DNA from: a virus
Virus record (IMG/VR): IMGVR_UViG_3300037246_001677
Span: 1-64,000 of that record
Length of the DNA: 64,000 bases
Direction: 5' to 3' (one strand)
The notes below the pieces were generated by a model. It was given only the letters and a program-made list of their open reading frames with translations. It was not told the DNA's origin and searched no databases. Below are positions 28,491 through 46,211 of the stretch, piece by piece. The translations under genes and the position numbers were made by a program. Position 1 is the stretch's first letter. The number at the start of each line of letters is the position of its first letter.

Positions 28491-28500
28491 ACAAATTATA

Positions 28501-28573
28501 AGGGTCGTGGGAGATGGTCTCCAATCTGGCTCCAAACCAGTAGGAAAGGGTTCGATTCCTTTACGGCCTGCCA
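28501..28573 (+). tRNA. tRNA-Trp(CCA)
   Basis: CTGG-CTCCAAA-CCAG, G73, CCA. Confidence 0.87.
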
Positions 28574-28583
28574 CAAAATTCAT

Positions 28584-28659
28584 GGGAGCGTAGTGATAAT
28601 TGGGAACACATCTGGTTTGCACCCAGAAATTGCAGGTTCGAGTCCTGTCGCCTCCACCA
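28584..28659 (+). tRNA. tRNA-Ala(TGC)
   Basis: Loop TTTGCAC, G3:U70, CCA. Confidence 0.92.
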
Positions 28660-28662
28660 TTT

Positions 28663-28780
28663 TTAGTACTAGTTCAACATCCAGAATGTCGAAACCTGGT
28701 TTGCAGGAGTATGGATGGACAATTGGGGTTGCTATCGACAAGCAATCAGAGGTGTCAAGTCGCTTCGTTCTGGTACTTAA
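28663..28780 (+). ncRNA. Structured ncRNA with a possible kissing loop
   Basis: AGTACTAG/CTGGTACT closing stem; CATCCA/TGGATG; TGTCGA complementary to hairpin loop TCGACA. Confidence 0.65.
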
Positions 28781-28787
28781 CAATTTT

Positions 28788-28862
28788 GGGTCATTAGCTC
28801 AATGGTCGAGCACCAAGCTGTTAACTTGGATTATTTCGGTTCAAGTCCGAAGTGGCCCTCCA
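28788..28862 (+). tRNA. tRNA with GTT (Asn) anticodon and atypical acceptor (G1-C72, U73)
   Basis: CCAAG-CTGTTAA-CTTGG, CCA. Confidence 0.85.
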
Positions 28863-28870
28863 CAAAATTT

Positions 28871-28948
28871 GCATCGGTAGCTCAGTCTGGTAGAGCACTT
28901 GGGTGAAGTCCAGGGTTGTCGTGGGTTCAATTCCTACTCGGTGCACCA
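28871..28948 (+). tRNA. tRNA-Phe(GAA)
   Basis: CTTGG-GTGAAGT-CCAGG, CCA. Confidence 0.88.
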
Positions 28949-29426
28949 AATTAAAAATGAAAGGATAAAGTCATGTTTAAAATGTTTTTCATAGAACTTA
29001 CAAACATTGGATCAGAAATAAATTTATCCTTAATAAAAACAGATAAAGAACATCCAGTACTTAATCAAATAACTGTAAGAATATATCATAAACTATATGG
29101 AACAGGAAAATGAAATGTAATAACTGTATAAAAAAAGAAAATTGTGAAATAAATGATGATTTTTTAATGGACCTCAATAATCAATGTGAAGGTGATATTA
29201 TGAATAAAAGGTGGAAATTAAATCAACAAAATTATGACGAAAAGGTCGAATTTAGTTTAATAGACACCAAACTAAATATTACTGTACAAATGTCCCTGAC
29301 AAATTGGATGTTAATTGATGTGTTTACAACTGTCGGTGGATTTGATAAAGTGGAACTCGATGAAAGTGTTGACGAGAAAAAACTTTTAGATTATTTAGAA
29401 TGGGAAAAGAGTAGAAATTAAAATTT

Positions 29427-29500
29427 GGGCTGTTAGTTCAGTGGTAGAACAGTGGGCTTTTAACCCTCAGATCAGAGTTCGATTCTCTGGCGGCCCACCA
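29427..29500 (+). tRNA. tRNA-Lys(TTT)
   Basis: Loop CTTTTAA, CCA. Confidence 0.9.
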
Positions 29501-29647
29501 ATTTTAAAAGATTTACAAAGTTATTGTGATTTGATATAATAAAAGAAAAACTATGAAAAAGGAAAACGATGAACCCAAAAAAAATAAAATGGGATACTTC
29601 AGGTAAACCAAAATCTAAAATAAAATCAAGATAGTAAAGATAAATGA

Positions 29648-29726
29648 TGCGGTGTAGGGGAGCCGGGACGTCCCCGCTAGCCTCATAAGCTAGAGATCGG
29701 TGGTTCAAATCCATCCACCGCTACCA
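29648..29726 (+). tRNA. tRNA-Met(CAT), 1:72 mismatch (initiator-like)
   Basis: CTAGC-CTCATAA-GCTAG, TTCAAAT T-loop, CCA. Confidence 0.88.
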
Positions 29727-29730
29727 ATTT

Positions 29731-29860
29731 GGAGTGACATGGAAAACAGAGGCGAGTAATTGATCTTCGATTATGGTTGTGTAAATAGACATGTAGAATC
29801 CACATAATTGAACACAGGCCCAGATCAAAAGAAAGCCATCTTTAGTACTTCGCTCCACCA
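29731..29860 (+). ncRNA. Rod-like ncRNA with a tRNA-type acceptor stem and CCA
   Basis: GGAGTGA/TCGCTCC-A-CCA enclosing AGAGGC/GCCATCT, TTGATCT/AGATCAA and TCGATTATG/CATAATTGA stems; no T-arm. Confidence 0.65.
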
Positions 29861-29865
29861 TATTT

Positions 29866-29958
29866 GGGGGCTATTCCGGTGAGCGGACTGTAAATCCGTT
29901 GCACGCAAAAACTTCATCGGCGGTTGTGCAGGTGGTTCAATTCCTCTAGCCCTCACCA
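29866..29958 (+). tRNA. tRNA-Tyr(GTA), D-arm-less with enlarged variable arm
   Basis: GCGGA-CTGTAAA-TCCGT; only 10 nt between acceptor and anticodon stems; CCA. Confidence 0.8.
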
Positions 29959-30034
29959 AATTAAACAAAGGAGATAATATGACTGTATTTGATACCGACA
30001 TCCATTAAGGTAAATAACTTAATGGAGGTATAAA

Positions 30035-30355
30035 ATGAAAAATGGTGATGTTGTTTATACTTATGACTGGCAAAAAGGTTATACAAAAAGAGTAGCGGTT
30101 CCTTTTCGTTACAGATTTGATCCGGTTCCGGGTATTAGCAGATGGAAAGGCAGTTATTTTAGTTGCTATTACAAAACTCCCAGACACATAAACGAAAAAA
30201 AACAATGGTTCAGCAGTGATGGATACGGAAGAACGAAAAGAAGTCCAGAAAATCTCCAGAACCCTTGGAATGACTCTCCAAGAGCAGATCGTTATTATGA
30301 TAGTTCTTGGAAAAAATCCAGAAAGGTAAATAGACAATGGCAGAAGAATCTTTAG
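30035..30355 (+). CDS. Basic aromatic-rich hypothetical protein
   Basis: GGAGG RBS; L..PW.D..R...SWK...K..RQW pattern. Confidence 0.65.
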   Translation: MKNGDVVYTYDWQKGYTKRVAVPFRYRFDPVPGISRWKGSYFSCYYKTPRHINEKKQWFSSDGYGRTKRSPENLQNPWNDSPRADRYYDSSWKKSRKVNRQWQKNL

Positions 30356-30494
30356 CAGTCAAATATTTAGAATACATGGACAAAGAAGATCGTGGTGAAA
30401 CATTTGATGACTTCTTTGACTGGGTTGGTACTAAAAAACAATACAGAACAGATTTTGCAGTTTGCGCAATTTTAAATCAAGCAGAAAAAATTAT

Positions 30495-30568
30495 AGCCCA
30501 ATAGTGTAACGGCAGCACTAGAGACTTTGAATCTCTCAGTCCGGGTTCGAATCCCAGTTGGGCCGCCA
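30495..30568 (+). tRNA. tRNA-Gln(TTG)
   Basis: AGAGA-CTTTGAA-TCTCT, CCA. Confidence 0.9.
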
Positions 30569-30638
30569 TATTAACCGTAGCAGGTAAGGTTCCTTCGCTT
30601 TAGTAAAAAACCTGGGAGTGGTTCTCCCAAACATTTAT

Positions 30639-30713
30639 GGTGTTGTTAAGATAGCGGTAGTCGTCGAGGTTGTGGCCCTCGGAGGACGGGTTCGAATCCC
30701 GTACATCACCCCA
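30639..30713 (+). tRNA. tRNA-His(GTG)
   Basis: CGAGG-TTGTGGC-CCTCG, G-1/C73, CCA. Confidence 0.87.
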
Positions 30714-30978
30714 ACTTTAAAAAGGAAAATGTGGATGGAAATAAAAGTCGGTGTTAATATAATAAGACAAGTGTTTGCTCCAGATTATGATTGGTCCGTT
30801 CTTTATTTTAAAAATGTCAAAATATGGGAAGGTCATAATTGTGAGAGTGAAAACATTAGGAAAGTATCAGAAGCACTTGGTGCTGTTTTCGTTCAATATG
30901 AGTTTACAGATGAAAATGAAATTGATGGTTGTACACCAGATTCATTCGTACACATTCGGGGAATAAAAGAATTATAAT

Positions 30979-31053
30979 GGGTTCTTGGTGAAATGGTATC
31001 ACGGCGGGCTCTTAACCCGTTAATTAAAGGTTCGAATCCTTTAGGGCCCACCA
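30979..31053 (+). tRNA. tRNA-Lys(CTT)
   Basis: GCGGG-CTCTTAA-CCCGT, CCA. Confidence 0.92.
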
Positions 31054-31060
31054 AATTTAA

Positions 31061-31143
31061 AAATCAGTAGCGTAGTGAAGAGTTACTTCGAATTATTACT
31101 TGAAATAATACCAAACAGTCTCTTTGTGATTGTACTCTGATTT
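31061..31143 (+). ncRNA. Y-RNA-like ncRNA copy 1 (minimal; carries an anticodon stem-loop mimic)
   Basis: Shares GTAGTGAAGAGTTACTTCG...CTCTTTGTGATTGTAC scaffold with RNAs upstream of Ro60; internal TATTA-CTTGAAA-TAATA. Confidence 0.7.
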
Positions 31144-31362
31144 AAAATAAAACATGTGAAAGGAATTAAAATGGCTTATAGAAAGCAAGTGAAAAAAGAA
31201 AAAAGTTTGACTTTGGAGGATTTACAAGCAATACGTGACCAGGCAAGAGGTAGCATAGCTTTAAGAGATGCCGATGAGCAAATTAATCTTCACTTTCTTC
31301 CACCAAAACCAAGAAGAAAGAAAAAGCAAAAGAAGGAAAGACGATATAGAGAAAGATAATAT

Positions 31363-31440
31363 AGGAGTGTAGGCCAATTTGGTAGAGTCACTGCGTTTAG
31401 ACCGCAGACAGTGTGGGTTCGAATCCCATCGCTCCTACCA
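31363..31440 (+). tRNA. tRNA-Leu(TAG), short variable loop
   Basis: CTGCG-TTTAGAC-CGCAG, CCA. Confidence 0.9.
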
Positions 31441-31582
31441 TAATAAAAATAAAAATATAAGAAAGGAAATTCAATGACAGAATTGTTAACTTTTATACAG
31501 ATGTGGTGGCAAGAATTGTTGTTTTCAGTTTCAATATTAATGTTTATAGCTGGTGTTTCAATAAAATTGTCGGAGGGTAGTA

Positions 31583-31951
31583 ATGAAACAGTCAAAATAT
31601 CTAAAAATGAATGGCTTAAAGGACGGGTATCTATACAAACTTACAGCCAGAAATGGTAATTATGGTGTGTGGATAGAAGAAAAGAAAGGCTTCGTTCTCA
31701 GCAGATTTAAATTTGGTGATAATTTTCCATTTGTGGAATACCATTACGATAGTGATCCTCACTTTGGGACTGCCAAGCCTTTAGAAGAAGTAGAGAAATG
31801 CTCGGTTGACACTGAAAATTATACCTCAAAGGAAATGTTAGATTATCTAAATAGTGTAGATAATAATACAAGATGTCAGCTATGTGGGCAATCAAAAGGT
31901 GATTGGTTAACTCATCTTGCAGATTGTCCGAATAAAAACAAAATAGATTAG
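31583..31951 (+). CDS. Hypothetical protein
   Basis: 122-aa ORF with GGAGG upstream, between tRNAs. Confidence 0.6.
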   Translation: MKQSKYLKMNGLKDGYLYKLTARNGNYGVWIEEKKGFVLSRFKFGDNFPFVEYHYDSDPHFGTAKPLEEVEKCSVDTENYTSKEMLDYLNSVDNNTRCQLCGQSKGDWLTHLADCPNKNKID

Positions 31952-32028
31952 CCGAAGTAGCCCAAATAGGTAGAGGCACATGGTCGAGGGCCATGACAGT
32001 GTGGGTTCGAATCCCACTTTCGGTACCA
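31951..32028 (+). tRNA. tRNA-Leu(GAG), short variable loop, C33
   Basis: CATGG-TCGAGGG-CCATG, CCA. Confidence 0.85.
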
Positions 32029-32034
32029 AAATTT

Positions 32035-32112
32035 AGGGGCGTAGGCCAACTAGGTAGAGTCATCAGGCTTAAACCCTGTACAGTGTGGGTTCGAATCCCA
32101 CCGCCCCTACCA
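32035..32112 (+). tRNA. tRNA-Leu(TAA), short variable loop
   Basis: CAGG-CTTAAAC-CCTG, CCA. Confidence 0.88.
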
Positions 32113-32348
32113 ATTTTAAAGAAAGGATCCAATATGAAATATGCCCATCCAGATATAAACATTTGTGTTCCATTAATTCCAATAGTACTGCTAATGGATA
32201 AATATCTTGGAATACCAGCACCTGAAATATTTACAGTATTTATATGGGTATCTACTGGACTGGTATGGTTAATATGGAAATTCTCTGTGAAAGATTGGAC
32301 AACAAAAACTAAAACTAACAAATATTGGTATAACTACTGGAAAAACAA

Positions 32349-32426
32349 GGGGGTGTAGGCCAACTTGGTAGAGTCACTGGATTCAAAATTCAGACAGTGT
32401 GGGTTCGAATCCCACCACCCCTACCA
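32349..32426 (+). tRNA. tRNA-Leu(CAA), short variable loop
   Basis: CTGGA-TTCAAAA-TTCAG, CCA. Confidence 0.9.
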
Positions 32427-32738
32427 TAGAAAGGAATAAAATATGCACACAGAATTACAAGTATTGGATGATATAGATAATGAAAAATGTTGGAAATGTA
32501 GAAAAGATGAAATGTGTCTTGATGAAGAAGGTGGATTACATCAAGGATTTACATGTAAGTCTTGTGGAGCAGAAGTAATCATCACATATAAAAGAGTGAT
32601 GGTATATCCAATTGTTCTATGTGATTCAGAAGCAGATGAAGAAATAGAAGTATATAAATAATAGTCTCACCTGCCATGTGTAGGAGGAGCATTCGGAACC
32701 GCAATCACGAGATTGCGGTTCCAGCCTAACAATATAAA

Positions 32739-32877
32739 TAATCGGTAGCGTAGTGAAGAGTTACTTCGGAATCATAATCCCGAGATTGGAGGTTCGAGTC
32801 CTTCTTTCCCCGCCTATGGGGAAATGGTCTAACTGGTTAAGACACGTAAACGTCTCTTTATGGTAGTACTCCGATTA
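32739..32877 (+). ncRNA. YrlA-like Y RNA (copy 2) with a circularly permuted tRNA-like domain
   Basis: Conserved scaffold enclosing GGA-ATCATAA-TCC, T-arm GGAGG-TTCGAGT-CCTTC, loop-closed acceptor TTTCCCC/GGGGAAA, D-arm GTCT/AGAC. Confidence 0.8.
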
Positions 32878-32888
32878 TTAGAATTTTC

Positions 32889-32963
32889 GCCTATGTGGTG
32901 TAATGGTAGCACGCCAGACTGTCGATCTGGAAGCGACGGTTCGATTTCCGTTCATGGGCGCCA
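32889..32963 (+). tRNA. tRNA-Asp(GTC)
   Basis: CCAGA-CTGTCGA-TCTGG, G73, CCA. Confidence 0.9.
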
Positions 32964-33012
32964 TTAGTTTACAAAGTCATTTTGATTTGATATAATAAAG
33001 AATAAAGGTTAA

Positions 33013-33073
33013 GCCGACCACATCGAAAATCGCATTACTTCGGTTGGAACCCTGCTATGCGAGCGAAATCGGC
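33013..33073 (+). ncRNA. Divergent mini Y-RNA-like element (copy 3)
   Basis: GCCGA/TCGGC and TCGCAT/ATGCGA stems around TTACTTCG + GG-TTGGAAC-CC; directly after promoter 32968-32996. Confidence 0.45.
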
Positions 33074-33085
33074 AAACAATTTCAT

Positions 33086-33159
33086 GGTCTGGTCGTCCAA
33101 CGGTAGGACGCGCGCCCGATAAGCGTGAAACATAGGTTCGATCCCTATTCAGACTACCA
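33086..33159 (+). tRNA. tRNA-Ile(GAT), C33
   Basis: CGCGC-CCGATAA-GCGTG, CCA. Confidence 0.88.
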
Positions 33160-33169
33160 CAATTAACAT

Positions 33170-33261
33170 GGTCCGATAGTACAACGGTAGTACAGCGGTT
33201 TTATAAGCCGTAAGCCCCGGATTAGGGCGGAATATAGGTTCGAATCCTATTCGGACTACCA
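33170..33261 (+). tRNA. tRNA-Ile(TAT) with long variable arm
   Basis: GCGGT-TTTATAA-GCCGT; GCCC/GGGC variable hairpin; CCA. Confidence 0.85.
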
Positions 33262-33276
33262 AAAAAGGATAAAGAA

Positions 33277-33561
33277 ATGGAACATACAGATAAATGTTTG
33301 AGCGGCAGTGAATGTAATTGCGCTGTTGAGAACGAGAACGAGAAAGAAAAAGTTGAAAAAGCTTTAAACAAAATCAGACCGATGCTACAGGCGGATGGTG
33401 GTGATGTAGAGCTTGTGGACGTTCAAGATGGAGTTGTAACTGTTCGCTTGCAAGGAGCATGTGGTAGTTGTCCAATGTCACAATTAACATTAAAAAACGG
33501 AATTGAGCGGATTTTGAAAGAAGAAGTGCCTGAGGTGGTATCCGTAGAATCTGTTCAGTAG
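33277..33561 (+). CDS. NifU/Nfu-family Fe-S carrier domain protein
   Basis: [15 protein letters not shown]...[20 protein letters not shown]. Confidence 0.93.
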
Positions 33562-33752
33562 GAGAAAAAAATTATGTTTTTCTGTATAAAATGCAAACAA
33601 CAATTCGGTTCACACATGTCAAGATATGGAGATTGTCCATACTGTGGCACAATCAACATGGTTGCTCAAAAAACAAAAGACTTAGGAATTAATGTTCTGT
33701 TTAAAAATTCAAACCCAATAAAAAAGTTATTGAAACTTATAAACAAAAATTA

Positions 33753-33846
33753 GGAGGGTGACCGGCTGGACGAGGAGCTTGTCTTGAAAACAAGTAGGTC
33801 CTGTTAGTAGCGGGGCTTAGGGGTTCGAGTCCCCTGCCCTCCTCCA
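33753..33846 (+). tRNA. tRNA-Ser(TGA)
   Basis: CTTGT-CTTGAAA-ACAAG, long variable arm, CCA. Confidence 0.9.
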
Positions 33847-34290
33847 TTTTTACCATGCGGGTGTGGATTATATCTGGTAAAACCGTATACCCCGGTGATG
33901 TAATGGGAAACACCCCCGCTAAATTTTTAGAAAGGAATTAATGTGATAAGTAATAAGGTAATGAAAACAGACGAGTTCAAAGATTCTATTTATTATCGTA
34001 TAGCATGTGGATGTGGTAGCAACGACCATGACTTAACAATAGAATTTGAATATGACAAAGACCTACCAGATATGGTTTCCTTAAACCTTTATAAAAAATT
34101 AGTATGGACTTCTCATTATGGTACTGGTAATTTTATAACAAGATTTTGGAAAAGAATAACAGGAGCCTTAAAAGTTTTATTTTTAGGTTATATTGAAGTA
34201 GAAGAGTCATTAATACTAAGAGACGAAGGACACATTGACTCATTTATAAAGGCTCTGGAAGAAGGAAAACAATATATTCAAAAACTAAAC

Positions 34291-34377
34291 GGAGAGTGAC
34301 CGGCTGGACGAGGAGCTAGTTTCGAAAACTAGTAGGAGGTAACACTTCTAAGGGTTCGAGTCCCTTACTCTCCTCCA
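34291..34377 (+). tRNA. tRNA-Ser(CGA)
   Basis: CTAGT-TTCGAAA-ACTAG, long variable arm, CCA. Confidence 0.9.
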
Positions 34378-34601
34378 CATGAAAGGAAAAATAATGTTAT
34401 TTGAACTCAATAAAGAAGATGTAGAAGAATATAAAAAATGGAAAAAACAACATGATAAAACCTGCCAAAGTCTATATGTTGGTGCTATAGGAGGAAGATT
34501 AAATTTCTCGTTTACACCCACTGGATTAGGTGATATAATTAGAATAAAATGTGCATGTGGTGAAGAGTTGGATTTAACACATTCTGAAAGGTGGTAAATT
34601 A

Positions 34602-35078
34602 ATGATTAGACAAATATGGGACTTTCCAAGGAATGTCAAATATGGCGTTAAAAATCTGATAACATGGTTTCCAATCATTTGGCGTGATAGATGGTGGGAT
34701 ACTCTTTTTGTTTATCCAATACTTCATAAAAAACTTACCATGATGGAAAAACATTTCAGAGAAGATGGGTGTCATGTTTACAATGAAAAAGATGCAGATA
34801 AAATTAAAATCTGTGTTCTTCTTCTTAAAAGAATTATGGATGATGGTTATTTCAAAAACGCATTCAAAAGACATAATGAAAAATGGGGTGATTCTAATGT
34901 TTCATTTGAAGAGTCATTCATAAAAATTACTTATGAAAAAGCAAACACAGAAGAAGATAAAAAAGAGGAAAGAAAAGATTTCAAACGTGCCATCAAACAT
35001 GAAGAGATGTTGAACCAACAAGATATTAACTACCTGTTCAAAATGATGTCAAAACATCTTAGAACATGGTGGGATTAA
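34602..35078 (+). CDS. Phage hypothetical protein
   Basis: WFPIIWRDRWWD ... WWD C-terminus. Confidence 0.65.
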   Translation: MIRQIWDFPRNVKYGVKNLITWFPIIWRDRWWDTLFVYPILHKKLTMMEKHFREDGCHVYNEKDADKIKICVLLLKRIMDDGYFKNAFKRHNEKWGDSNVSFEESFIKITYEKANTEEDKKEERKDFKRAIKHEEMLNQQDINYLFKMMSKHLRTWWD

Positions 35079-35084
35079 ATTTAA

Positions 35085-35159
35085 GCCTCCGTAGTTCAAT
35101 GGATAGAACACTCGGCTACGAACCGGGAAACGCGGGATCAATACCTGCCGGGGGTACCA
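35085..35159 (+). tRNA. tRNA-Arg(ACG), atypical T-loop
   Basis: CTCGG-CTACGAA-CCGGG; T-loop ATCAATA; CCA. Confidence 0.85.
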
Positions 35160-35321
35160 AATATAAATGGAGTGGTTATTTTTAATGGGAATCGCGATTC
35201 CCGATTGATTTAGAATTAACTTACTCAAAATGCAGAGATCGGATTTCAAAGGGGACTTTGCCCTCTGCTGTTTCTTGGCCGTCCCGGGCCGCCAAGTGAT
35301 AAATTAGTCCTTTACTTTTTT

Positions 35322-35396
35322 ATCTCTATAGCTCAATGGATAGAGCCTATGTTTCCTAAACATAAGACCGGGGTTCGATTCCCCGTAGGGATTCCA
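35322..35396 (+). tRNA. tRNA-Arg(CCT)
   Basis: TATGT-TTCCTAA-ACATA, CCA. Confidence 0.9.
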
Positions 35397-35404
35397 CAGT
35401 TTGT

Positions 35405-35563
35405 GAAGAAACTGATATGGATATAAGTGTAGGTAAATGTCGACTTGCTAAAACTTATATTTGAAGTAGTCGAAAAACGACCTTATCCGTCAGAGTTTTG
35501 AAAAGGAGTACGGACCCTGTTAGTAAACCGGTTAAAGAAAGCAGGTGCTATGTCAGTTTCTTC
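35405..35563 (+). ncRNA. Structured ncRNA of unknown family
   Basis: 16-bp closing stem GAAGAAACTGATATGG/CTATGTCAGTTTCTTC with several internal hairpins. Confidence 0.65.
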
Positions 35564-36035
35564 CAACCACAGAATAAAAAGAAAGGAAATAAAATGTTAA
35601 AAAGTGTAATGTTACAAAATTTAAATTTGTTACGCAAATCAAATTTGGCAAATAAGTTAAAGTGTCTACATAAAGGACATATATGGTGTATCGCTCAACC
35701 TGATCCAGATGGTGAAGTTGATTTACCAAATGGAGAAACAGTGTATGGTTGTTTAGATATATATGCCTGCTTCAGATGTGGTAAGGTAAAAAGTGTTTTC
35801 ACACCAGAAAAGGAAATTCCAGAAGAAGATTGGTCCGAATTTAATTAATAAGAAAGGAACAAAAAATGTTAAAGAAAATAATGACTCCAATTACTTTTTT
35901 AATGGAAAAAGGTTTAGATGGCAAAACAGGAAATTTTTGGGATTATGTTTGCCAATACATTATGGCTTGTGGTATAGGTGCCCATATTTTTATTGGTTTC
36001 CTTATTATAATGTCGTTATTTTAAAGGATTAGAAT

Positions 36036-36455
36036 ATGTTTGATATTTCAAAAATAAACTGTCCAAAGGTGGCTGTAGATGCAGTCATTCAATTAGAAGG
36101 CACAAAGAATATTGTTCTGATAAAAAGAAAATATCCACCATTAGGTCTTGCTCTTCCAGGTGGGTTCGTTGATTATGGTGAGTCATTAGAGGATGCCGTA
36201 ATTAGAGAAGTCAAAGAAGAAACGGGTTTGGAATTTTATAATATGAATCAGTTAAGCGCAAGATCAAACCCAAATAGAGACCCACGAGGTCATATAATTT
36301 CTATTCCTTGGTGGGGATTTGGAAAGGGTGATCCTGTCGCACAAGATGATGCAAAAGAGATATTTATAATATCAAGAACAAAAACCATGATACAGGAATA
36401 TGCTTTCGAAGATCATAGAAGAATGATCTTAGAATATATTTTTGCCTGTGATTAA
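36036..36455 (+). CDS. Nudix hydrolase (ADP-ribose pyrophosphatase-like)
   Basis: LPGGFVDYGESLEDAVIREVKEETGL Nudix box; RDPR; AQDDA; AF.DH. Confidence 0.9.
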   Translation: MFDISKINCPKVAVDAVIQLEGTKNIVLIKRKYPPLGLALPGGFVDYGESLEDAVIREVKEETGLEFYNMNQLSARSNPNRDPRGHIISIPWWGFGKGDPVAQDDAKEIFIISRTKTMIQEYAFEDHRRMILEYIFACD

Positions 36456-36458
36456 TAA

Positions 36459-36533
36459 GCCACCTTAGTTAACCTGGTATAACCAATGTTTCGTAATCAT
36501 TAATAGCAGGTTCAAGTCCTGCAGGTGGCCCCA
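36459..36533 (+). tRNA. tRNA-Thr(CGT)
   Basis: Loop TTCGTAA, CCA. Confidence 0.87.
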
Positions 36534-36540
36534 CACATAA

Positions 36541-36614
36541 GCCGTCATAGTTCAAAGGTAGAACGCGTCTTTGGTAAGGACGAAGTTTGAGTTCGATTCT
36601 CAATGGTGGCTCCA
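36541..36614 (+). tRNA. tRNA-Thr(GGT)
   Basis: CGTCT-TTGGTAA-GGACG, CCA. Confidence 0.9.
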
Positions 36615-39712: not shown

Positions 39713-40575
39713 TGGATTGGAAGAAGTTTACATTTACATCAGTTTTAGGTATAATAATAATATTAGCGTCATTTTTTATGATAACGGAGTCCGCCAGGTA
39801 CTACAATTTTTTTTATGATTCAGGAGCCTGGCAGCCATTGTTTTTGGCAAGTCTTTTAGAGGTATTCGTTTTGACTCTCGCTGCGATAAAAATAGGAACC
39901 AAAAGGACTTTTCACTTCATTCAAAAGATAATTATGATTAGTGTTTTTGCCATAATAATCACAGCAGCTGGTATTCAAGCAATTAACCCAACGTTGGAAA
40001 GCATTGAAATAGTTTCAAAACAAGAAGCACTTTCTGACATTTTAAAAGAAGAATATAAAACCCTACAGCAAGATCGCGTTGTTTTTGAAAAACAGAAACA
40101 GCGACGTAACACTGCGATCGCGGCGGCTGAAAGAAGAAAAATAGTAAAGGATTTGAAGGAGCTGTTTAACCAGGATATCAAGACAGACAAAGGTCGAGTA
40201 GCCCTATTAAATATTTTACTCTTATTTATGATTAGGTTTATAGTTCAGTTATCAAATGTTTTTTGTGCGTCAATGTTAGGTGTTTATTTTAGAGATAGAA
40301 AAACTGAAATAAAGGAGAAACGCACTATGAAATGGAACATTTTAAAGTTTTTTAAAAAGAAACAAAAAGTAGAAGAGCAAAAAGTAGAACAGCAAAAAGA
40401 ACAATTGACACCACGTCAATTTGTTTTATCTAAATTTCCAAATGCGGTTTGTATGAAATCTGATGCGTTTGGAGAAGGAAAATATATCATATCAAAAGGT
40501 TCTGAAAAAATATCTATTGGTAGATCAAAAACAAAGGCTTGGAGACAAGCCAGTCATAATTTGAAAGGAAAATAA
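39712..40575 (+). CDS. Multi-pass membrane protein with coiled coil
   Basis: 3 N-terminal TM helices, coiled coil, a 4th TM. Confidence 0.65.
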   Translation: MDWKKFTFTSVLGIIIILASFFMITESARYYNFFYDSGAWQPLFLASLLEVFVLTLAAIKIGTKRTFHFIQKIIMISVFAIIITAAGIQAINPTLESIEIVSKQEALSDILKEEYKTLQQDRVVFEKQKQRRNTAIAAAERRKIVKDLKELFNQDIKTDKGRVALLNILLLFMIRFIVQLSNVFCASMLGVYFRDRKTEIKEKRTMKWNILKFFKKKQKVEEQKVEQQKEQLTPRQFVLSKFPNAVCMKSDAFGEGKYIISKGSEKISIGRSKTKAWRQASHNLKGK

Positions 40576-40791
40576 AATGGTACACGGCGAAGTATGTCCA
40601 ATATGTAATTCAAAAAATACAGGTGATGGTGAAATGAGTTATACTTATGATGATCCAGCAAAGGTAGCAGCAACCTGGAGTTGTCAGGATTGTGGGGCTA
40701 TTTATAGTGTGATCTATAAAGCAGAAAAAATGGAAATTGAAAAATTTATAGAAGAGGAAGATGAATGGGAACCAGAATATGAGGTAACTTT

Positions 40792-41193
40792 ATGAGCAAA
40801 GTCATTGGAATAATAGGCTCACGGAGACGTGATGCTGACGAGGATTACCACCAAGTTTACAATGAGTTTAAAAAGTGGTATGATAAGGGTGATAAAATTT
40901 GTTCCGGTGGATGTCCAAAAGGTGGAGATCGTTTTGCTGAGATAATTGCCAGAAAAATGGGTTTGACTAAGGAAAATGGTGGTTTGATAATTCATTATCC
41001 TAAGAAACCCCGTCCCGGTTCACCAAGGTGGGCATGGGCAAAAGTAAACTTTGAAAGAAATACTTTGGTAGCAAACGACTCAGATATTATAATAGCTTGT
41101 GTTGCTCCTGATAGGACAGGTGGAACGGAAGATACGATAAAAAAATTCCTAAAGAAAACCACAGGATCGGAAGTTAAAACAAGGATAGTGTAA
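40792..41193 (+). CDS. SLOG/DprA-like nucleotide-binding protein
   Basis: IGIIGSR, SGGCPKGGD, RN..VA..SD, GGTEDT. Confidence 0.75.
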   Translation: MSKVIGIIGSRRRDADEDYHQVYNEFKKWYDKGDKICSGGCPKGGDRFAEIIARKMGLTKENGGLIIHYPKKPRPGSPRWAWAKVNFERNTLVANDSDIIIACVAPDRTGGTEDTIKKFLKKTTGSEVKTRIV

Positions 41194-41390
41194 TGTTTGA
41201 AGATTTAATAAAAGACAAACCAGAAAAAGAGAAACCAGAAAAAATTGATAAAGATCATTTTATAAAAATTTTATCGGATAACGTAAGACAGAAACAAAAA
41301 ATTATAGATGATCTTATATCTGAGCTAACAAAAAAACAAGTTACTATTGATGGTATGAGAAAAGAAATAGATTATTTAACAGACCTATAA

Positions 41391-41502
41391 GCGGCGATGG
41401 TGTAACCCGATAAATAGTTTTTATGAGGAATCTATTTTGATGGGGAGGTAGCACACTCGCTGTCCAAGCGGGAGGTGGGGTTCGATCCCCCGAGTCGCTC
41501 CA
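41391..41502 (+). tRNA. tRNA-Gly(TCC)-like with a ~40-nt hairpin inserted in the D-loop
   Basis: GTGT/GCAC D-stem flanks the insert; CTCGC-TGTCCAA-GCGGG; T-arm; U73 CCA; imperfect acceptor stem. Confidence 0.65.
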
Positions 41503-41940
41503 AAAGAAAAGAAAGGAAAACAAAATGTTAGTCATAGTTAAAGAACGAGGTGATATTAGGGAAAAAATGGGTATATTACAAATCGACGATGAGCATAAAG
41601 AAATAACTATTATTCAACATCCGAATTTTGAAGAAGGTGACACCCATCATATTTCAATGTTAAATCATTTAGTTAAATCTATGAGAAAGGATAAATAATG
41701 ACTAAAGGAATAATCGCCATAAGAGAAGTAAAGTCAAATCAGACTATGCTATCACTTGAAGATTATAATGTTAGAGCAAATGCTGAAAAATTTGCAGCAG
41801 ACTATCTTCAAGACAAATGGGATCAAGAAGGCCAAGCCACTAGATGGATGTGGTATGCTGGTTACTTCGTTTTGGGATGTTTCTTTTGGGAAACACTACC
41901 GTTGATGATAGGATTAATAACATTTTTTATAAACTTATAA

Positions 41941-42029
41941 GGCGAGGTAGACAGATGGGAGAGTCAAGCGGTTTGCTAAACCGTTCAGCGGTAACACGTT
42001 TGCAGGTTCGAGTCCTGTTCTCGCCGCCA
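41941..42029 (+). tRNA. tRNA-Ser(GCT)
   Basis: GCGGT-TTGCTAA-ACCGT, variable arm, CCA. Confidence 0.9.
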
Positions 42030-42442
42030 CTTTATAAAGGAACATGATGGAAGATAATGAAAAAGTAATTAAAGCAGCAGTCAATATTATTGTTGAATCA
42101 ATATTAAATCTTATTCAAGATGATCCACATCTATGGAGTAAAAGACCATGTTCAACATGCAGAGCTGTTTCTTCTATAATTGGCAAACCATTTGGTTGTG
42201 TTCTTAAAGCCGTTAAAAAGGAATAAAATGAGAGAATTAATATTATTACCAATACTTCTTTTAATTGTTAGTTGTTGTACACCAGACAAACCAGTTGCAG
42301 CCATTAAACCATTTCATTACAATAGAAATATAATTTGGAAAGCCTATGACTGTGACTGTAATAAAGATATAGATTATTGGCAACACTATGATGAAAATGG
42401 TAAATTTGGAAGTAAAATATATACGAAAGGAAACGAAGGAAA

Positions 42443-42562
42443 ATGCGAATAATAAAATGTAGAGAAAAGGGCGGCCCGTAGATTAAAGCACCGCCATAGA
42501 GCATTGCTAGAGCGCCTCCATGTGGCTTTCAGACAACATATAACCGATTAATGTTGATTTAA
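42443..42562 (+). promoter_or_regulatory. Putative leader peptide MRIIKCREKGGP*IKAPP*SIARAPPCGFQTTYNRLMLI* with two in-frame TAG codons
   Basis: Manual translation; TAG at 42479-42481 and 42497-42499; locally GC-rich. Confidence 0.65.
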
Positions 42563-42585
42563 AACCACAAAATGGGAGGTCAAAA

Positions 42586-42900
42586 ATGACTTATAAAGAA
42601 TTAAAATTAAAGATAAAACAAGAGCAGAAAGCATTGGCAAGAGCAATCAGAAAAGGTAAAAGCGCAAGAAAACCAAGTAATCGTAACGAGGAAAACATTG
42701 GTTTTTATGAAGCACTTTTCTGGAATAGAATTAACTATAGATACAATCACATTGTGTATTGTAATATGTTTAACAGAACACCGTATGAAAAAATTGAGCA
42801 ACCCAGAGAATGGAATACAGCCAATAAACATCGGCTCGATACAATTAGAAAAGAATGGGAGTCCTTGCTTGATGAGCAAATTATTTGTGACAATTCGTAA
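42586..42900 (+). CDS. Basic helical hypothetical protein overlapping the Pth2-like gene
   Basis: GGGAGG RBS; overlaps the next ORF. Confidence 0.7.
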   Translation: MTYKELKLKIKQEQKALARAIRKGKSARKPSNRNEENIGFYEALFWNRINYRYNHIVYCNMFNRTPYEKIEQPREWNTANKHRLDTIRKEWESLLDEQIICDNS

Positions 42901-43165
42901 GGACCTAAGTCATTCACAACGGGCAGTTCAAGCAGGCCATGCTGTGGCAGAGTATATGCTTAACTGCCCGAATAGCAGTTGGAGGAATCAAACCCTTATC
43001 TATCTGGGAGTTAAAGGTTTGACCCAACTGGAAAATTTAAAAATGAAATTGAGACTACGTGGTACTAAGTTCGTGGAATTTAAGGAACCGGATATTGGCA
43101 ATCAAACCACAGCAATAGCTAGTGATATAGATGATCCAATATTCAATAAATTAAATCTGTTATAA
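42872..43165 (+). CDS. Peptidyl-tRNA hydrolase, PTH2-like
   Basis: KLFVTIRKDL...AVQAGHAVAE...TLIYL...F.EPDIGNQTTAIA; start reassigned to ATG 42872. Confidence 0.72.
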   Translation: MSKLFVTIRKDLSHSQRAVQAGHAVAEYMLNCPNSSWRNQTLIYLGVKGLTQLENLKMKLRLRGTKFVEFKEPDIGNQTTAIASDIDDPIFNKLNLL

Positions 43166-43239
43166 TGGTCAGTAGTTCAGTGGCAGAACGGGTGATTCTA
43201 AACCACCGGTCGTGGGTTCAATTCCCACCTGGCCATCCA
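43166..43239 (+). tRNA. Amber suppressor tRNA (anticodon CTA)
   Basis: TGGTCAG/CTGGCCA acceptor, GTTC/GAAC D-arm, GGTGA-TTCTAAA-CCACC, T-arm, CCA. Confidence 0.88.
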
Positions 43240-43596
43240 AAAAGGAGAAAGTAAAAATGAGAATGAGTCAAAGAATGATGGATTCATTGGATAGATGGAT
43301 AACCGGAAATTATGGTGAGGATCAATTTAAGGATGAAGAGGAAGAAGATGAATTTTGTGATGAAGACTGCAGTAAATGTAAAATGAAAGTTAACTACACT
43401 ATGTTCGATCAAGAGGATGATGGGGACATAGGGCCAAAACCGTTCTAAAAAGGAGGTAAAATATGTTACAAAGTGATTTTGGAACCCTAGCTAATTTATT
43501 AATTATGGTGGGAGCATTAGCATTTTTAATATACATGACTATTGGTTATGGTGGTGCTTTGAATGTCCCATTTCTATAAGGAGATAAAAGACTAAA

Positions 43597-44061
43597 ATGT
43601 TTGAACCAAAAATATATGTGGCTAGTGATCGAGAAGGTTGTGTAATGAAACAAGAAATTGTACAACATCTCACTACAACAAACAAACAATATTCAATAGA
43701 AGATATTGGACCGAAACTTGGGGAAGATATTGATTTCCCAACCCACGCTTTAATGATTGCTGATTTAGTTAAGGAAAATCCAGGTGAGCATTTTGGAGTA
43801 CTCATAAGTACAACTGGAAATGAAATGGCCGTTGCCGCAAATAAGATAAAAGACATTAGAGCGGTTGTTTGCTGGAACATACAGACTGCTGAACAAGGTA
43901 GAAAAATACTCGATGCTAACATAATATGTATACCAGCCGATATAACAACTCAAGACAGCCCACTTAAAATTATAGATGCGTTTATAAAAAGAGGCGCGTC
44001 TAAAAACATGAAACATTTTAGGAGAAGATGGTTATTAGAAAAATTAGTTGATGCCTTGTAG
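43597..44061 (+). CDS. RpiB/LacAB-family sugar-phosphate isomerase-like protein (catalytic motifs degenerate)
   Basis: ASDREG, DFP, GVLISTTGNEMAVAANKI, DANIIC. Confidence 0.75.
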   Translation: MFEPKIYVASDREGCVMKQEIVQHLTTTNKQYSIEDIGPKLGEDIDFPTHALMIADLVKENPGEHFGVLISTTGNEMAVAANKIKDIRAVVCWNIQTAEQGRKILDANIICIPADITTQDSPLKIIDAFIKRGASKNMKHFRRRWLLEKLVDAL

Positions 44062-44126
44062 TGTAACGGTAGCACACAACACTCTGAATGTTGCGGGTAT
44101 AGGTTCGAATCCTATCAGGGCAGCCA
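44052..44126 (+). tRNA. tRNA-Gln(CTG)
   Basis: CAACA-CTCTGAA-TGTTG, U1-A72, CCA. Confidence 0.92.
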
Positions 44127-44131
44127 CTTTT

Positions 44132-44157
44132 AAAGGGAGCATTGGCTTCCTTTTTTT
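44132..44157 (+). terminator. Intrinsic terminator
   Basis: GGGAGC/GCTTCC hairpin + T-run. Confidence 0.7.
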
Positions 44158-44712
44158 ATGTTTACAACTAATTGAATTTGTTGTATAATATTAGAAAATA
44201 TGTAAGGAGTTTTGGAAATGAATAAAATTCTGTTGAAGTTGTTTAAAAAATACTTTATCTTTAAAATTCAGAGCGAGTGGAAAGAAGAGTTAAAAGAAAT
44301 AGATGAAGTTAAATTAAAAAAGTGGATGGACGACGAACTGCTTTTGAAAATAGATATTTCCTCAAAAGAAATACTAGAAAAATTGAGAGAAGAAATAAAA
44401 GATAAATGGGAATATATTCTATGGTATGATATAAACAATTTTATAGAGGACTGTAAAGAAGAGAAAGAAAAAGAGAAAGAAAAAGAGGATGAATGGAACA
44501 CAGAAACAAATATAGACGATGGAAAAACTATGTTGATTTGTCCAGACGCAGATGAAAATTGTTCTGAATGTGATCACCAAAAACCACATCTTTATAATAG
44601 TGAATGTGATACAGAATGTGATATTTCAGATATTCGTAAAAAATGTGAAGTATGGGAATTAGAAGAAGAAAGCTTAGAACAAGAAGTAAAAGAAACAGGG
44701 GGAGTATGACTT

Positions 44713-45612
44713 GTGATAGATAGAAGATTATGGACTTTCGTCTATGAACCAAAAACAATAGATGAAATGATACTAAACAAAGATATAAAACCAGTACTAA
44801 AAGAAGCACTTAATAAATTACCATCACTATTATTATATGGAACACCTGGTGTTGGTAAGGGTACTTTTGCAAATATAATATTAAAACACACAGGATTTGA
44901 CAAGATGTGGATAAACGCATCAGATGAAACAGGAATTGATGCCATTAGGGAAAGAATAAGACCTTTCGCCACTTCTATGTCAATGACTGACATGAAAATA
45001 ATAGTACTAAATGAGGCAGACTCTCTAACCTCAGGGCAACAGGGTGCGCAGAAAATGCTCCGGCAATTGATGGAAGACGTTCACAAAATTACAAGGTTTA
45101 TACTTCTTTGTAATTACGAACATAATATAATAGACGAGATTAAGTCGAGATGTCAAACCATAAAAATTGACAACCCACCGGCCAAAGAGATAGGGAAGCT
45201 CTGCCTTAACATTTTAAGAAACGAGAAAGTAAAATTCAACGTAAAGGATGTTGTTGCAATAGTTGAAAAATGCTATCCTGACATTAGAAAAACAATTAAT
45301 GTTCTACAATTAAACACTGTAAATAAAAAGCTAGTAGGCTCAAGGCTAAGTGTTTCAGAGGATGTATGGAAAAAAATTCATTCGTTAATGTTAAAACAAG
45401 ATGTTGAAAATGCCAGGAAAGAATTGAAGAGTAATTATATTGATTATCCAGATTTGTATAAGTACTTATATGAAAATGCTGGTGATTTTAAAGAACCAGG
45501 TGGTGCAATAATTTTAATAGGAGAGCACCTAAATAGAAATACATTCTATCCTATAAAAGAAATAAACTTCATGCACATGTTTGTGCAAATGATATTCCAA
45601 AAGGTGATATGA
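44713..45612 (+). CDS. Clamp-loader AAA+ subunit (T4 gp44/RFC-like)
   Basis: W...Y.P..IDE, GTPGVGKGT, NASDE.GID, SRC motif, PD.R. Confidence 0.92.
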   Translation: MIDRRLWTFVYEPKTIDEMILNKDIKPVLKEALNKLPSLLLYGTPGVGKGTFANIILKHTGFDKMWINASDETGIDAIRERIRPFATSMSMTDMKIIVLNEADSLTSGQQGAQKMLRQLMEDVHKITRFILLCNYEHNIIDEIKSRCQTIKIDNPPAKEIGKLCLNILRNEKVKFNVKDVVAIVEKCYPDIRKTINVLQLNTVNKKLVGSRLSVSEDVWKKIHSLMLKQDVENARKELKSNYIDYPDLYKYLYENAGDFKEPGGAIILIGEHLNRNTFYPIKEINFMHMFVQMIFQKVI

Positions 45613-46211
45613 TATGTTTGAAGATATTTTAGAAAAATCAAGTTTAAATCATAACGAGAAAGTTGTACTATCAGTTATTAGAACTTTGAATGAGTTGGTA
45701 GAAAAGGGTATACTATCAGAAGGACCATTTACTTTTCCTGATCCAAAGAAAGTAGATGAGATATTAGGGGATTTTCAACCAACAGAAGATGAAATAAGAG
45801 ATACAATTATCTGGATGAAATCGAAAGGATATATGCAATGATAACTTTAAGATTTGATGGTGAGGTAATTAAATACTGTGAAATATCAGAAACAGAAGTA
45901 TTGGAAGATGAGTGGGCAGTTAATTACTTAACCGATGAAAAGGTTGCAGGTAGAATTGATAACCCATTAACCTATGCTTTTATAAAGGAGTTATTGACAA
46001 AAGATGAAGAAAATAAAGATAACTAAACACGTTGAAATTATTTATACACCAGATGAATTACTATACGATGGTATGTCATTTGAAGAAATAGCCAAGGAAG
46101 ATGTTAGAATGGTTGGTCGATATGGTCAGTCATATCTTATATCTGCTGAAGGCGGTGTTGATGAACAAGAAACAATAACATGGGAAATAATAGACGAGGA
46201 AGTAATCACAG

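What the first reader, a model, noticed from the sequence alone, without database searches (positions are those of the whole stretch)
42443..43239. Candidate amber/termination-sensing module: Pro-amber and RAPP leader, Pth2-like hydrolase, amber suppressor tRNA
Seen: an unannotated frame from ATG 42443 reads MRIIKCREKGGP-TAG-IKAPP-TAG-SIARAPP-CGF...TAA, i.e. two in-frame ambers, each directly after Pro, then RAPP, in a locally GC-rich patch. Downstream are a basic ORF (42586), an overlapping PTH2-like gene (42872) and, starting at the base after its stop, a complete tRNA with CUA anticodon (43166). Established: RAPP/RAGP motifs are nascent-peptide arrest motifs (SecM, ApdA/ApdP class), Pro before a stop slows peptide release, and Pth recycles dropped-off peptidyl-tRNA. 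Inference: ribosomes stall at or read through the ambers depending on release-factor activity or suppressor level, gating a termination-rescue/readthrough kit, possibly with feedback by the tRNA itself.
Basis: partly seen in the sequence, partly recalled or inferred. Interest (0 to 1): 0.92.

Follow-up and report, generated by a model that had tools for sequence, protein, structure and literature searches.

The report
Amber-readthrough-gated stalling leader in phage
A T4-like phage carries a tiny leader whose ribosome-stalling Arg-Ala-Pro-Pro motif is reached only if two UAG stop codons are read through, probably by the phage's own UAG-reading tRNA, and the stall should expose the start signal of two downstream genes.

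Summary
The frame from ATG 42443 reads M..GGP-TAG-IKAPP-TAG-SIARAPP.., followed by a 104-aa basic ORF, an overlapping 97-aa Pth2-fold gene and a tRNA-CUA.

It is not chance. I compared 118 non-identical related loci.
- tRNA-CUA lies within 900 nt downstream in 72 of 87 loci.
- An in-frame R-x-P-P motif lies upstream of the 104-aa ORF in 67 of 81 loci. The nearest stop before it is always TAG, and 63 of the 67 have two or more TAGs.
- R[GDAS]PP is about 200 times over background.
- The Pro codons pair with the ORF's Shine-Dalgarno in 71 of 82 loci, against 1 of 96 and 2 of 223 control ORFs.
- A distant clade puts the stop inside the Pth2-like ORF: TAG where the tRNA is CUA, TGA where it is UCA.

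Best reading: read-through-dependent arrest unmasks the start site. This is inferred, not shown. What the two proteins do is unknown.

The phage uses the standard code. I found no paper describing this design.

This scan has found the same design before on other DNA.

The parts
42228..42452 (+). Upstream 74-aa ORF, lipoprotein-like by its N-terminus (my reading, no family hit). Its TAA stop lies 7 nt after the leader's ATG, so translational coupling is possible.
   Evidence: no Pfam family
42443..42562 (+). Leader frame: 12 codons, TAG, 5 codons ending Pro-Pro, TAG, 3 codons, RAPP, 13 codons, TAA.
   Evidence: The layout is conserved in related loci.
42479..42481 (+). First in-frame amber (TAG), after Pro and followed by A.
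   Evidence: The base after TAG1 is a purine in 62 of 74 loci.
42497..42499 (+). Second in-frame amber (TAG), after Pro-Pro.
   Evidence: Wherever R-x-P-P follows, this stop is TAG, in 47 of 47 loci.
42509..42520 (+). Arg-Ala-Pro-Pro codons (AGA GCG CCT CCA), the presumed arrest site. CCUCCA doubles as the anti-Shine-Dalgarno strand.
42565..42579 (+). 3' strand of the hairpin: CCAC plus UGGGAGG, which is the Shine-Dalgarno of the 104-aa ORF. In the MFE fold it pairs with 42515-42525.
42586..42900 (+). 104-aa basic protein of no known family. It has a conserved N-terminus and a YRHxHIAYC motif, and the model is a long helical hairpin.
42872..43165 (+). 97-aa Pth2-fold protein, overlapping the previous ORF by 29 nt.
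43166..43239 (+). tRNA with anticodon CUA (amber suppressor), with encoded CCA, starting at the base after the Pth2-like stop.
44132..44153 (+). The only terminator-like hairpin found in 41500-44300. It may mark the end of the transcription unit, after tRNA-Gln at 44052-44126.
   Evidence: a consensus match only; 1 found against 1.4 expected

Best explanation
The leader at 42443-42562 acts as a translational sensor of amber suppression.

1. Without a UAG-reading tRNA, ribosomes terminate at TAG 42479. The hairpin that pairs the Pro-Pro codons (CCUCCA, 42515-42520) with the Shine-Dalgarno of the 104-aa ORF (GGGAGG, 42574-42579) stays closed.
2. When the phage's tRNA-CUA (43166-43239) is active, ribosomes read through both ambers. 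Each amber sits after Pro, a context I recall as slow for release factor.
3. [quoted passage not shown]
4. The stalled ribosome covers the anti-Shine-Dalgarno strand. This frees the start site of the 104-aa ORF and, through the 29-nt overlap, of the Pth2-fold gene.

Both proteins would therefore be made only when UAG is being read as sense.

What is shown: the conserved anatomy, the linkage to the tRNA, and the predicted pairing. What is inferred: read-through, arrest, unmasking, and the roles of the two proteins. My guess for the proteins is that they handle peptidyl- or aminoacyl-tRNA by-products of suppression.
For: Anatomy in the window.

Data set: 129 loci that encode a relative of the Pth2-like protein, plus the window. 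This makes 118 loci with non-identical Pth2-like stretches; 12 identical ones were dropped.

- Linkage to the tRNA: tRNA-CUA lies on the same strand within 900 nt after the Pth2-like stop in 72 of 87 loci that have that much DNA. A 73rd overlaps the stop.
- Partner gene: a homologue of the 104-aa ORF lies directly upstream in 89 loci.
- Amber pattern: TAG, then 1-7 sense codons, then CCN, then a stop occurs at -650 to -250 from the Pth2-like start in 68 of 95 loci. Background is 0.056 per 400 nt.
- Arrest motif: [RK][GDASE]PP occurs in 67 of 81 loci with 260 nt upstream (RGPP 48, RDPP 11, RAPP 4, RSPP 3, KDPP 1). In all 67 the nearest upstream in-frame stop is TAG. In 63 there are two or more TAGs in a row, and in 4 there is one.
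- Enrichment: R[GDAS]PP gives 67 hits in 20,898 leader codon positions, against 8 in 503,944 elsewhere. The expected number is 0.33.
- Peptide-level selection: Arg is coded AGA 38, CGT 14, CGG 6, AGG 3, CGC 3, CGA 2. The second Pro uses all four codons. The window against L045/L046 shows AGA to CGA and GCG to GCA.
- Stop logic: where R-x-P-P follows, the second stop is TAG in 47 of 47 loci. Where nothing follows, it is TAA or TGA in 26 of 27.
- Pairing: in MFE folds the Shine-Dalgarno pairs with a CCNCC/CUCC segment 40-100 nt upstream in 71 of 82 loci. The figures for controls are 1 of 96 other ORFs of this genome and 2 of 223 other ORFs in the loci. The window shows the same pairing.
- Second architecture: relatives at 35-39% identity lack the leader and carry the stop at codon 3-11 of the Pth2-like ORF itself. 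It is TAG in L033/34/35, L037 and L043, and TGA in L041 and L042. L041 and L042 have tRNA-UCA. The records of L033, L034, L035 and L037 hold tRNA-CUA.

Literature:
- RAPP and RGPP give robust arrest that EF-P does not relieve. RDPP and RSPP are partly permissive (PMC12992588, abstract and passages).
Against: - No experiment or RNA data bears on read-through, arrest or unmasking.
- The window's hairpin region is not unusually stable: z is -1.24, and 21 of 200 shuffles fold at least as well.
- The window's leader ATG has a poor Shine-Dalgarno spacing and overlaps the upstream ORF.
- 14 of 81 loci lack R-x-P-P and have only the short TAG...PP-stop form.
- 11 of 82 loci lack the predicted pairing.
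- 15 of 87 loci have no tRNA-CUA just downstream.
- The loci are related to each other, so the counts are not independent events.
- CCUCC serves both as Pro-Pro codons and as the anti-Shine-Dalgarno. Part of the Pro-Pro conservation could therefore be selection on RNA; the first Pro is CCT in 52 of 67 loci.
- The amino acid carried by the tRNA is unknown.
- The Pth2-like protein scores below Pfam's cut-off: 19.5 against 23 bits.
- HMMER aligns its invariant Ser-Gln opposite the Gly-Lys of solved Pth2 chains, so its chemistry may differ from Pth2.
- I found no natural read-through target in this genome.
Confidence: 0.75

Rival explanations
1. The leader measures release factor 1 activity rather than the suppressor tRNA. 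Pro-Pro-UAG sites pause ribosomes when RF1 is scarce, and the operon answers a termination deficit, much as prfB senses RF2.
For: Each amber follows Pro or Pro-Pro. I recall this as a slow-release context; Hayes et al. 2002 is seen only as an entry in a reference list. The output depends on the ratio of tRNA to RF1, so the two readings overlap.
Against: A ribosome paused at TAG1 or TAG2 would not cover the anti-Shine-Dalgarno in the window (geometry). Reaching R-x-P-P needs two read-throughs, which is implausible without a cognate tRNA. The module is linked to tRNA-CUA in 72 of 87 loci. The gating stop changes to TGA where the tRNA is UCA.
Confidence: 0.1
2. The real output is transcription, not translation initiation. 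The stalled or translating ribosome blocks Rho or a terminator, so the downstream tRNA-CUA gets transcribed. This would be positive feedback on the suppressor.
For: The tRNA lies downstream on the same strand in 72 of 87 loci, and 0-8 nt after the Pth2-like stop in 24 of those 72. The only terminator-like hairpin in 41500-44300 lies after 44126.
Against: No terminator or rut-like element was identified between the leader and the tRNA. The anti-SD:SD pairing, seen in 71 of 82 loci, is already explained by control of initiation. In some loci the tRNA is upstream or distant. This could act in addition to the main mechanism.
Confidence: 0.08
3. The conserved element is an RNA structure only: a hairpin that hides the Shine-Dalgarno and is opened by a protein or RNA. 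The peptide motifs and the TAGs would be by-products.
For: The first Pro is CCT in 52 of 67 loci, which gives CCUCC. Pairing is widespread.
Against: Arg switches between the AGR and CGN codon families, and the second Pro uses all four codons. The TAGs keep frame with R-x-P-P in 67 of 67 loci. The stop type depends on whether R-x-P-P follows: 47 of 47 against 26 of 27. Rfam finds no match in the region.
Confidence: 0.04
4. The TAGs give programmed read-through that adds a functional C-terminal tail to the upstream protein, with no regulatory role.
For: In many loci TAG1 is the stop codon of a conserved upstream gene ending ..EW(T/H)DD.
Against: In the window and many other loci the leader is a separate mini-ORF of 2-14 codons. 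Only PP and R-x-P-P are conserved in the tail. According to PMC12992588 (passage), R-x-P-P motifs are strongly avoided in bacterial proteomes.
Confidence: 0.03

Closest known systems
RAPP/RGPP-type regulatory arrest peptides (ApdA, ApdP, ApcA; SecM with RAGP; Streptomyces RAPP/RGPP uORFs)
   Same: A short upstream ORF carries an R-A/G-P-P core. [quoted passage not shown] The ORF sits just before the regulated gene.
   Different: The known examples are gated by secretion or membrane insertion of the nascent chain, or their input is unknown. Here the motif lies behind one to three in-frame UAG codons, so the input is stop-codon read-through. The leader has no signal peptide and it is phage-borne. 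The PMC12992588 text has no occurrence of 'phage', 'stop codon' or 'suppressor'.
Stall-dependent Shine-Dalgarno unmasking (secM-secA, mifM-yidC2, ermCL-ermC); recalled, not read here
   Same: The hairpin pairs the leader's stall region with the Shine-Dalgarno of the next gene.
   Different: The trigger is read-through by a suppressor tRNA, not a pulling force or an antibiotic.
prfB (RF2) autoregulation by an in-frame UGA; recalled
   Same: An in-frame stop codon is used as a gauge of termination against an alternative decoding event.
   Different: prfB uses a +1 frameshift inside the coding sequence and controls the release factor itself. Here the alternative event is decoding by a tRNA, and the controlled genes are a Pth2-fold protein and an unknown partner. 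The in-ORF variants (L033, L037, L041-L043) are the nearest in form.
Synthetic amber-in-leader switches and suppressor-tRNA gene circuits
   Same: A review describes engineered systems that place TAG in a leader peptide, so that downstream expression requires suppression (PMC6412442, passages). A related design is a suppressor-tRNA feed-forward loop (PMC7969014, seen as a search listing and abstract start only).
   Different: Those systems are man-made and, in the reviewed case, act through transcription. This one is natural, widespread in phage contigs, and combined with an arrest motif.
Stop-codon-recoded phages (TAG read as Gln, 'code 15')
   Same: These phages also encode suppressor tRNAs (bioRxiv 10.1101/2021.08.26.457843 and PMC9523058, seen as search listings and abstract starts only).
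   Different: This genome and five large relatives keep late genes free of in-frame stops.

Membership tests
RAPP/RGPP-type arrest peptide | R-A/G-P-P core in a short ORF upstream of, and co-directional with, the regulated gene | tested here: met
   RAPP is at 42509-42520. The core occurs in 67 of 81 related loci and is enriched about 200-fold.
RAPP/RGPP-type arrest peptide | The stall site is coupled to an mRNA structure that masks the downstream start site | tested here: met
   Predicted only. The window's MFE fold shows the pairing. It appears in 71 of 82 loci, against 1 of 96 and 2 of 223 controls.
RAPP/RGPP-type arrest peptide | Ribosome arrest demonstrated by toeprint or accumulation of peptidyl-tRNA | not testable with these tools
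   No experiment was possible, and no RNA run was listed.
RAPP/RGPP-type arrest peptide (Sec/YidC monitoring class) | N-terminal signal or membrane segment whose export releases the arrest | tested here: not met
   The leader has 12 codons before TAG1 and no hydrophobic segment. Many relatives have only 2-3 codons there.
Pth2 peptidyl-tRNA hydrolase (PF01981) | Match to the Pfam model at its gathering score | tested here: not met
   The window protein scores 19.5 bits against a cut-off of 23, E 0.0012. All 28 aligned members match at E <= 0.01, the best at 2.2e-6.
Pth2 peptidyl-tRNA hydrolase (PF01981) | Pth2 fold | tested here: met
   The model has pLDDT 93.6. The top Foldseek hits are all Pth2 (2zv3, 3erj, 1q7s, 1xty), with TMq 0.74-0.79 and probability 1.00.
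Pth2 peptidyl-tRNA hydrolase (PF01981) | Catalytic residues (I recall a Lys in the G-K motif and an Asp; the source paper is not held) | tested here: inconclusive
   HMMER aligns the invariant S15-Q16 opposite the G-K of solved Pth2 chains. His23 and Asp74 are invariant.
Amber suppressor tRNA | Complete cloverleaf with anticodon CUA | tested here: met
   ARAGORN and Rfam tRNA at 58.8 bits over the full model.
Amber suppressor tRNA | Is aminoacylated and decodes UAG | not testable with these tools
   Acceptor stems differ widely among 91 distinct tRNA-CUA sequences, and the tRNA's identity is unknown.
Stop-codon-recoded phage (TAG as sense) | In-frame TAG in conserved late genes | tested here: not met
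   Portal, terminase and polymerase are intact under table 11. Reading TAG as sense gives no gain in ORF cover. The portal gene has no internal stops in 5 of 5 large relatives.

The most novel reading that the evidence does not exclude
The module is a self-referential switch for genetic-code state. The phage's suppressor tRNA turns on, through its own read-through of the leader, a Pth2-fold enzyme and a helical partner that act on the suppressor tRNA itself, for example by deacylating or recycling it. Ribosome traffic may also sustain transcription of the tRNA. This would set the level of UAG read-through by feedback. Such a circuit would be a natural stepping stone between standard-code phages and phages that reassign TAG.
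Probability: 0.2. Interest if true: 0.95.

Novelty: new variant of a known kind. Interest (0 to 1): 0.87.

Why it matters
Arrest-peptide leaders are known as sensors of secretion, antibiotics or metabolites. A leader whose input is stop-codon read-through by a cognate suppressor tRNA would be a natural reporter of whether UAG is being read as sense.

It would give a direct handle on two open questions. One is why many standard-code large phages carry suppressor tRNAs; the XacN1 authors could not find targets for theirs (PMC5852040, passage). The other is how phages manage the cost of read-through.

It also assigns a context to two protein families: a Pth2-fold family of about 96 aa with 291 database relatives, and a partner of no known family.

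Finally, it offers ready-made parts for genetic-code engineering.

Tried and rejected
**Searches and tests that gave nothing useful**
- Close relatives in GenBank phages: blastn with 41900-44200 found no match.
- The 104-aa ORF as a single query in IMG/VR: none confirmed. The alignment of Pth2-like proteins worked instead.
- Rfam on 40000-46000 at E <= 10: nothing in 42453-42585.
- Repeats of the intergenic stretch in the genome: none beyond 12-nt chance matches.
- TAG recoding: rejected.
- Domains spanning TAG junctions in four same-frame ORF pairs read with TAG=Q: none.
- Other R-x-P-P leaders or stop-gated ORFs in the 120-kb genome: only this leader. Four other R[GDAS]PP hits have no TAG context, and one TGA candidate at 40765 looks like ordinary gene overlap.
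- The 104-aa protein: no Pfam or PHROG family for it or for 37 relatives. Foldseek's best hit has E 1.9. VIA-align's best has Z 5.6, in the range the tool calls common for helical models. The ESM Atlas gave no usable hit.
- Promoter scan: 16 matches against 10.7 +/- 3.3 expected, so no call is possible.
- tRNA identity: the best resemblance to the genome's other tRNAs is weak. The genome has no tRNA-Tyr, but the CUA tRNA is class I, so I draw no conclusion.
- Complex prediction with the Pth2-like and 104-aa proteins: no verdict.
- The look-up of sequencing runs: no RNA holder listed, only DNA runs.
- The paper on Pth2 active-site residues (PMC2253226) is not held, so those residues are recalled only.
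- Supplements of papers were not opened. Supplementary tables of the phage-recoding papers might list linked genes that I could not see.

**Claim of 'not in print'.** It rests on searches, over CC-licensed PMC and bioRxiv only.
Full report
**What is there**

The window is the first 64 kb of a single 120,170-bp virus record at 35% G+C. The record encodes a T4-type portal, a T4-type large terminase, a family B DNA polymerase, and PrkA and SpoVR homologues. All 35 of its tRNA genes lie in the window.

42443-42562 translates to MRIIKCREKGGP*IKAPP*SIARAPPCGFQTTYNRLMLI*, and both internal stops are TAG. Downstream lie three genes:
- a 104-aa ORF at 42586-42900, pI 9.5;
- an overlapping 97-aa ORF at 42872-43165;
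- a tRNA with anticodon CUA at 43166-43239, beginning at the base after the stop.

**The genome uses the standard code**

- Treating TAG as sense adds almost no ORF cover.
- Same-frame ORF pairs joined by TAG are no commoner than pairs joined by TGA or TAA.
- The late genes are intact.
- In five large relatives (223-315 kb) the portal gene has no internal stop.

**Relatives**

The 97-aa protein has 291 database relatives of about 96 aa. Using an alignment of 28 of them (A1), I fetched 43 IMG/VR loci, 80 metagenome loci and 6 loci from genome bins. With the window this makes 130 loci. 118 remain after dropping 12 whose Pth2-like stretch is identical to another's. Their identity to the window protein runs from 35% to 98%. 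They are relatives of one another, so the counts below are not independent events.

**A conserved three-part module**

- A tRNA-CUA lies on the same strand within 900 nt after the Pth2-like stop in 72 of 87 loci that have that much DNA. One more overlaps the stop.
- 95 of the 184 tRNAs found in these loci are CUA.
- A homologue of the 104-aa ORF, with N-terminus MT(Y/F)KELKxKIKEEQKxLA, lies directly upstream of and mostly overlapping the Pth2-like gene in 89 loci.

**The leader is conserved in frame**

Three-frame translation of the 220 nt upstream of the 104-aa ORF showed the same design in locus after locus. The design is either a mini-ORF or the end of an upstream gene. After that come TAG, 3-7 codons ending Pro-Pro (sometimes x-Pro or Pro-x-Thr), and a second TAG. 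It ends with 2-5 codons and R-G/D/A/S-P-P.

- The pattern TAG, 1-7 sense codons, CCN, stop occurs at -650 to -250 from the Pth2-like start in 68 of 95 loci. Elsewhere there are 102 hits in 728,622 nt.
- [RK][GDASE]PP occurs in 67 of 81 loci with 260 nt of upstream DNA. In all 67 the nearest in-frame stop before it is TAG. In 63 there are two or more consecutive TAGs, and in 4 there is one.
- R[GDAS]PP gives 67 hits in leader regions, against 0.33 expected from the rest of the loci in all six frames.
- Arg is coded by both codon families, and the second Pro by all four codons. The window against its closest relatives shows synonymous changes at Arg and Ala. These points argue for selection on the peptide.
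- If R-x-P-P follows, the second stop is TAG in 47 of 47 loci. If the leader ends there, the stop is TAA or TGA in 26 of 27. A few of those 26 rows are spurious short hits or RGPP-stop ends, and one search lists them.
- The base after TAG1 is a purine in 62 of 74 loci. I recall that a 3' purine favours amber suppression in E. coli. I did not read the source for this.

**Pairing with the start site**

In the window's MFE fold, CCUCCA (the Pro-Pro codons) and GUGG pair with CCAC and UGGGAGG. The latter is the Shine-Dalgarno, 6 nt before ATG 42586.

Across loci, the Shine-Dalgarno of the 104-aa ORF pairs with a CCNCC/CUCC segment 40-100 nt upstream in 71 of 82 cases. The same test gives 1 of 96 for other ORFs of this genome and 2 of 223 for other ORFs in the loci.

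The window's structure alone is not unusually stable (z -1.24). The comparative result carries the weight here.

[quoted passage not shown] That range includes the anti-Shine-Dalgarno strand, while the Shine-Dalgarno 54 nt further on stays free. This geometry is my inference from usual ribosome footprint sizes.

**A second architecture confirms the logic**

Relatives at 35-39% identity lack the leader and instead carry a stop near the start of the Pth2-like ORF itself:
- M-T-TAG-V.. in L033/L034/L035 (identical) and L037;
- M-L-TAG-T.. in L043;
- M-K-TGA-V.. in L041;
- ..C-TGA-V.. in L042.

L041 and L042 carry tRNA-UCA in the locus. The records of L033, L034, L035 and L037 carry tRNA-CUA elsewhere, and the L041 record showed UCA but no CUA in the loci I scanned. 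So the gating stop follows the suppressor's anticodon, in two TGA/UCA cases.

Short leaders of the form M-x-TAG-V-x-x-P-P-TAA, without R-x-P-P, make a third grade. In these the Pro-Pro-stop codons themselves pair with the Shine-Dalgarno.

**The proteins**

*The 97-aa protein.* It scores 19.5 bits on Pfam PTH2, below the 23-bit cut-off. All 28 aligned members match at E <= 0.01. A confident model (pLDDT 93.6) matches only Pth2 structures at the top of the list. HMMER places its invariant Ser-Gln opposite the Gly-Lys of solved Pth2 chains. By recall that Lys is catalytic, so activity is open.

*The 104-aa protein.* It models confidently (pLDDT 92.9) as a long helical hairpin. It has an invariant Arg52, His55 and Glu71 within YRHxHIAYC...IE. 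It has no family and no informative fold match.

**Mechanism and its standing**

The published work establishes these points:
- RAPP and RGPP give robust arrest that EF-P does not relieve.
- RDPP and RSPP are partly permissive, and all of these motifs are avoided in bacterial proteomes (PMC12992588, abstract and passages).

The variants seen here (RGPP, RDPP, RAPP, RSPP) are the same set.

I therefore read the leader as a gauge of amber suppression. Read-through of the ambers brings the ribosome to the arrest motif, and the arrest opens the start site. Read-through, arrest and unmasking are all inferred.

Why the two proteins should be made only under suppression is unknown. My guess is that they handle peptidyl- or aminoacyl-tRNA by-products, or tune the suppressor itself.

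**Prior knowledge**

My searches found natural arrest leaders and synthetic amber-in-leader switches. They found no natural leader gated by a suppressor tRNA, and no paper linking Pth2 with suppressor tRNAs in phages.

This scan has noted the same design before on other DNA: 81 findings in at least 64 genomes. I had reached my reading before that look-up. From it I took the stop-anticodon test, which I then ran myself.

Noticed in passing
window 17100-20200: About 3 kb with almost no ORF of 100 aa or more under table 11 or with TAG=Q. G+C rises locally (0.44 at 18-19 kb), and the coding strand and GC skew switch sign here. Rfam finds no match at gathering score. It could be an origin or control region, or a long non-coding stretch.
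   Followed up: partly
window 27079-36614, 41941-44126: There are 35 tRNA genes covering 19 amino acids plus CUA, but none for Tyr. Rfam adds a weak tRNA at 23005-23074 (35 bits) that ARAGORN does not call. tRNA-Ile(UAU) at 33170-33261 is 92 nt long.
   Followed up: partly
L132:6136-8136 and 10985-12565 (G000 110136-112136, 114985-116565): The phage encodes full-length PrkA (AAA_PrkA plus PrkA, E 2e-110) and SpoVR (E 9e-100) homologues next to the portal and terminase genes.
   Followed up: no
window 20403-21341: An ORF with an HPD motif near its N-terminus ends in TAG at 21131. The same frame stays open for 69 more codons, up to the start of the next gene at 21343. Pfam finds no domain, so a read-through product is neither shown nor excluded.
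   Followed up: partly
L003:3777-4162, L004:4551-4901, L019:856-1251: ARAGORN calls tmRNA genes within 1-2 kb of the Pth2-like/tRNA-CUA module in three large phage contigs.
   Followed up: no
L002-L004, L007, L059, L074 and others, upstream of the leader: In many loci TAG1 is the stop codon of a conserved Cys-rich acidic upstream gene ending ..C..C.(I/L)EW(T/H)DD. The window has an unrelated 74-aa ORF in that position.
   Followed up: no
window 43597-44061 and 44052-44126: An RpiB-like gene (LacAB_rpiB, E 3e-32) ends in a TAG that lies inside tRNA-Gln(CUG). A terminator-like hairpin follows at 44132-44153.
   Followed up: no
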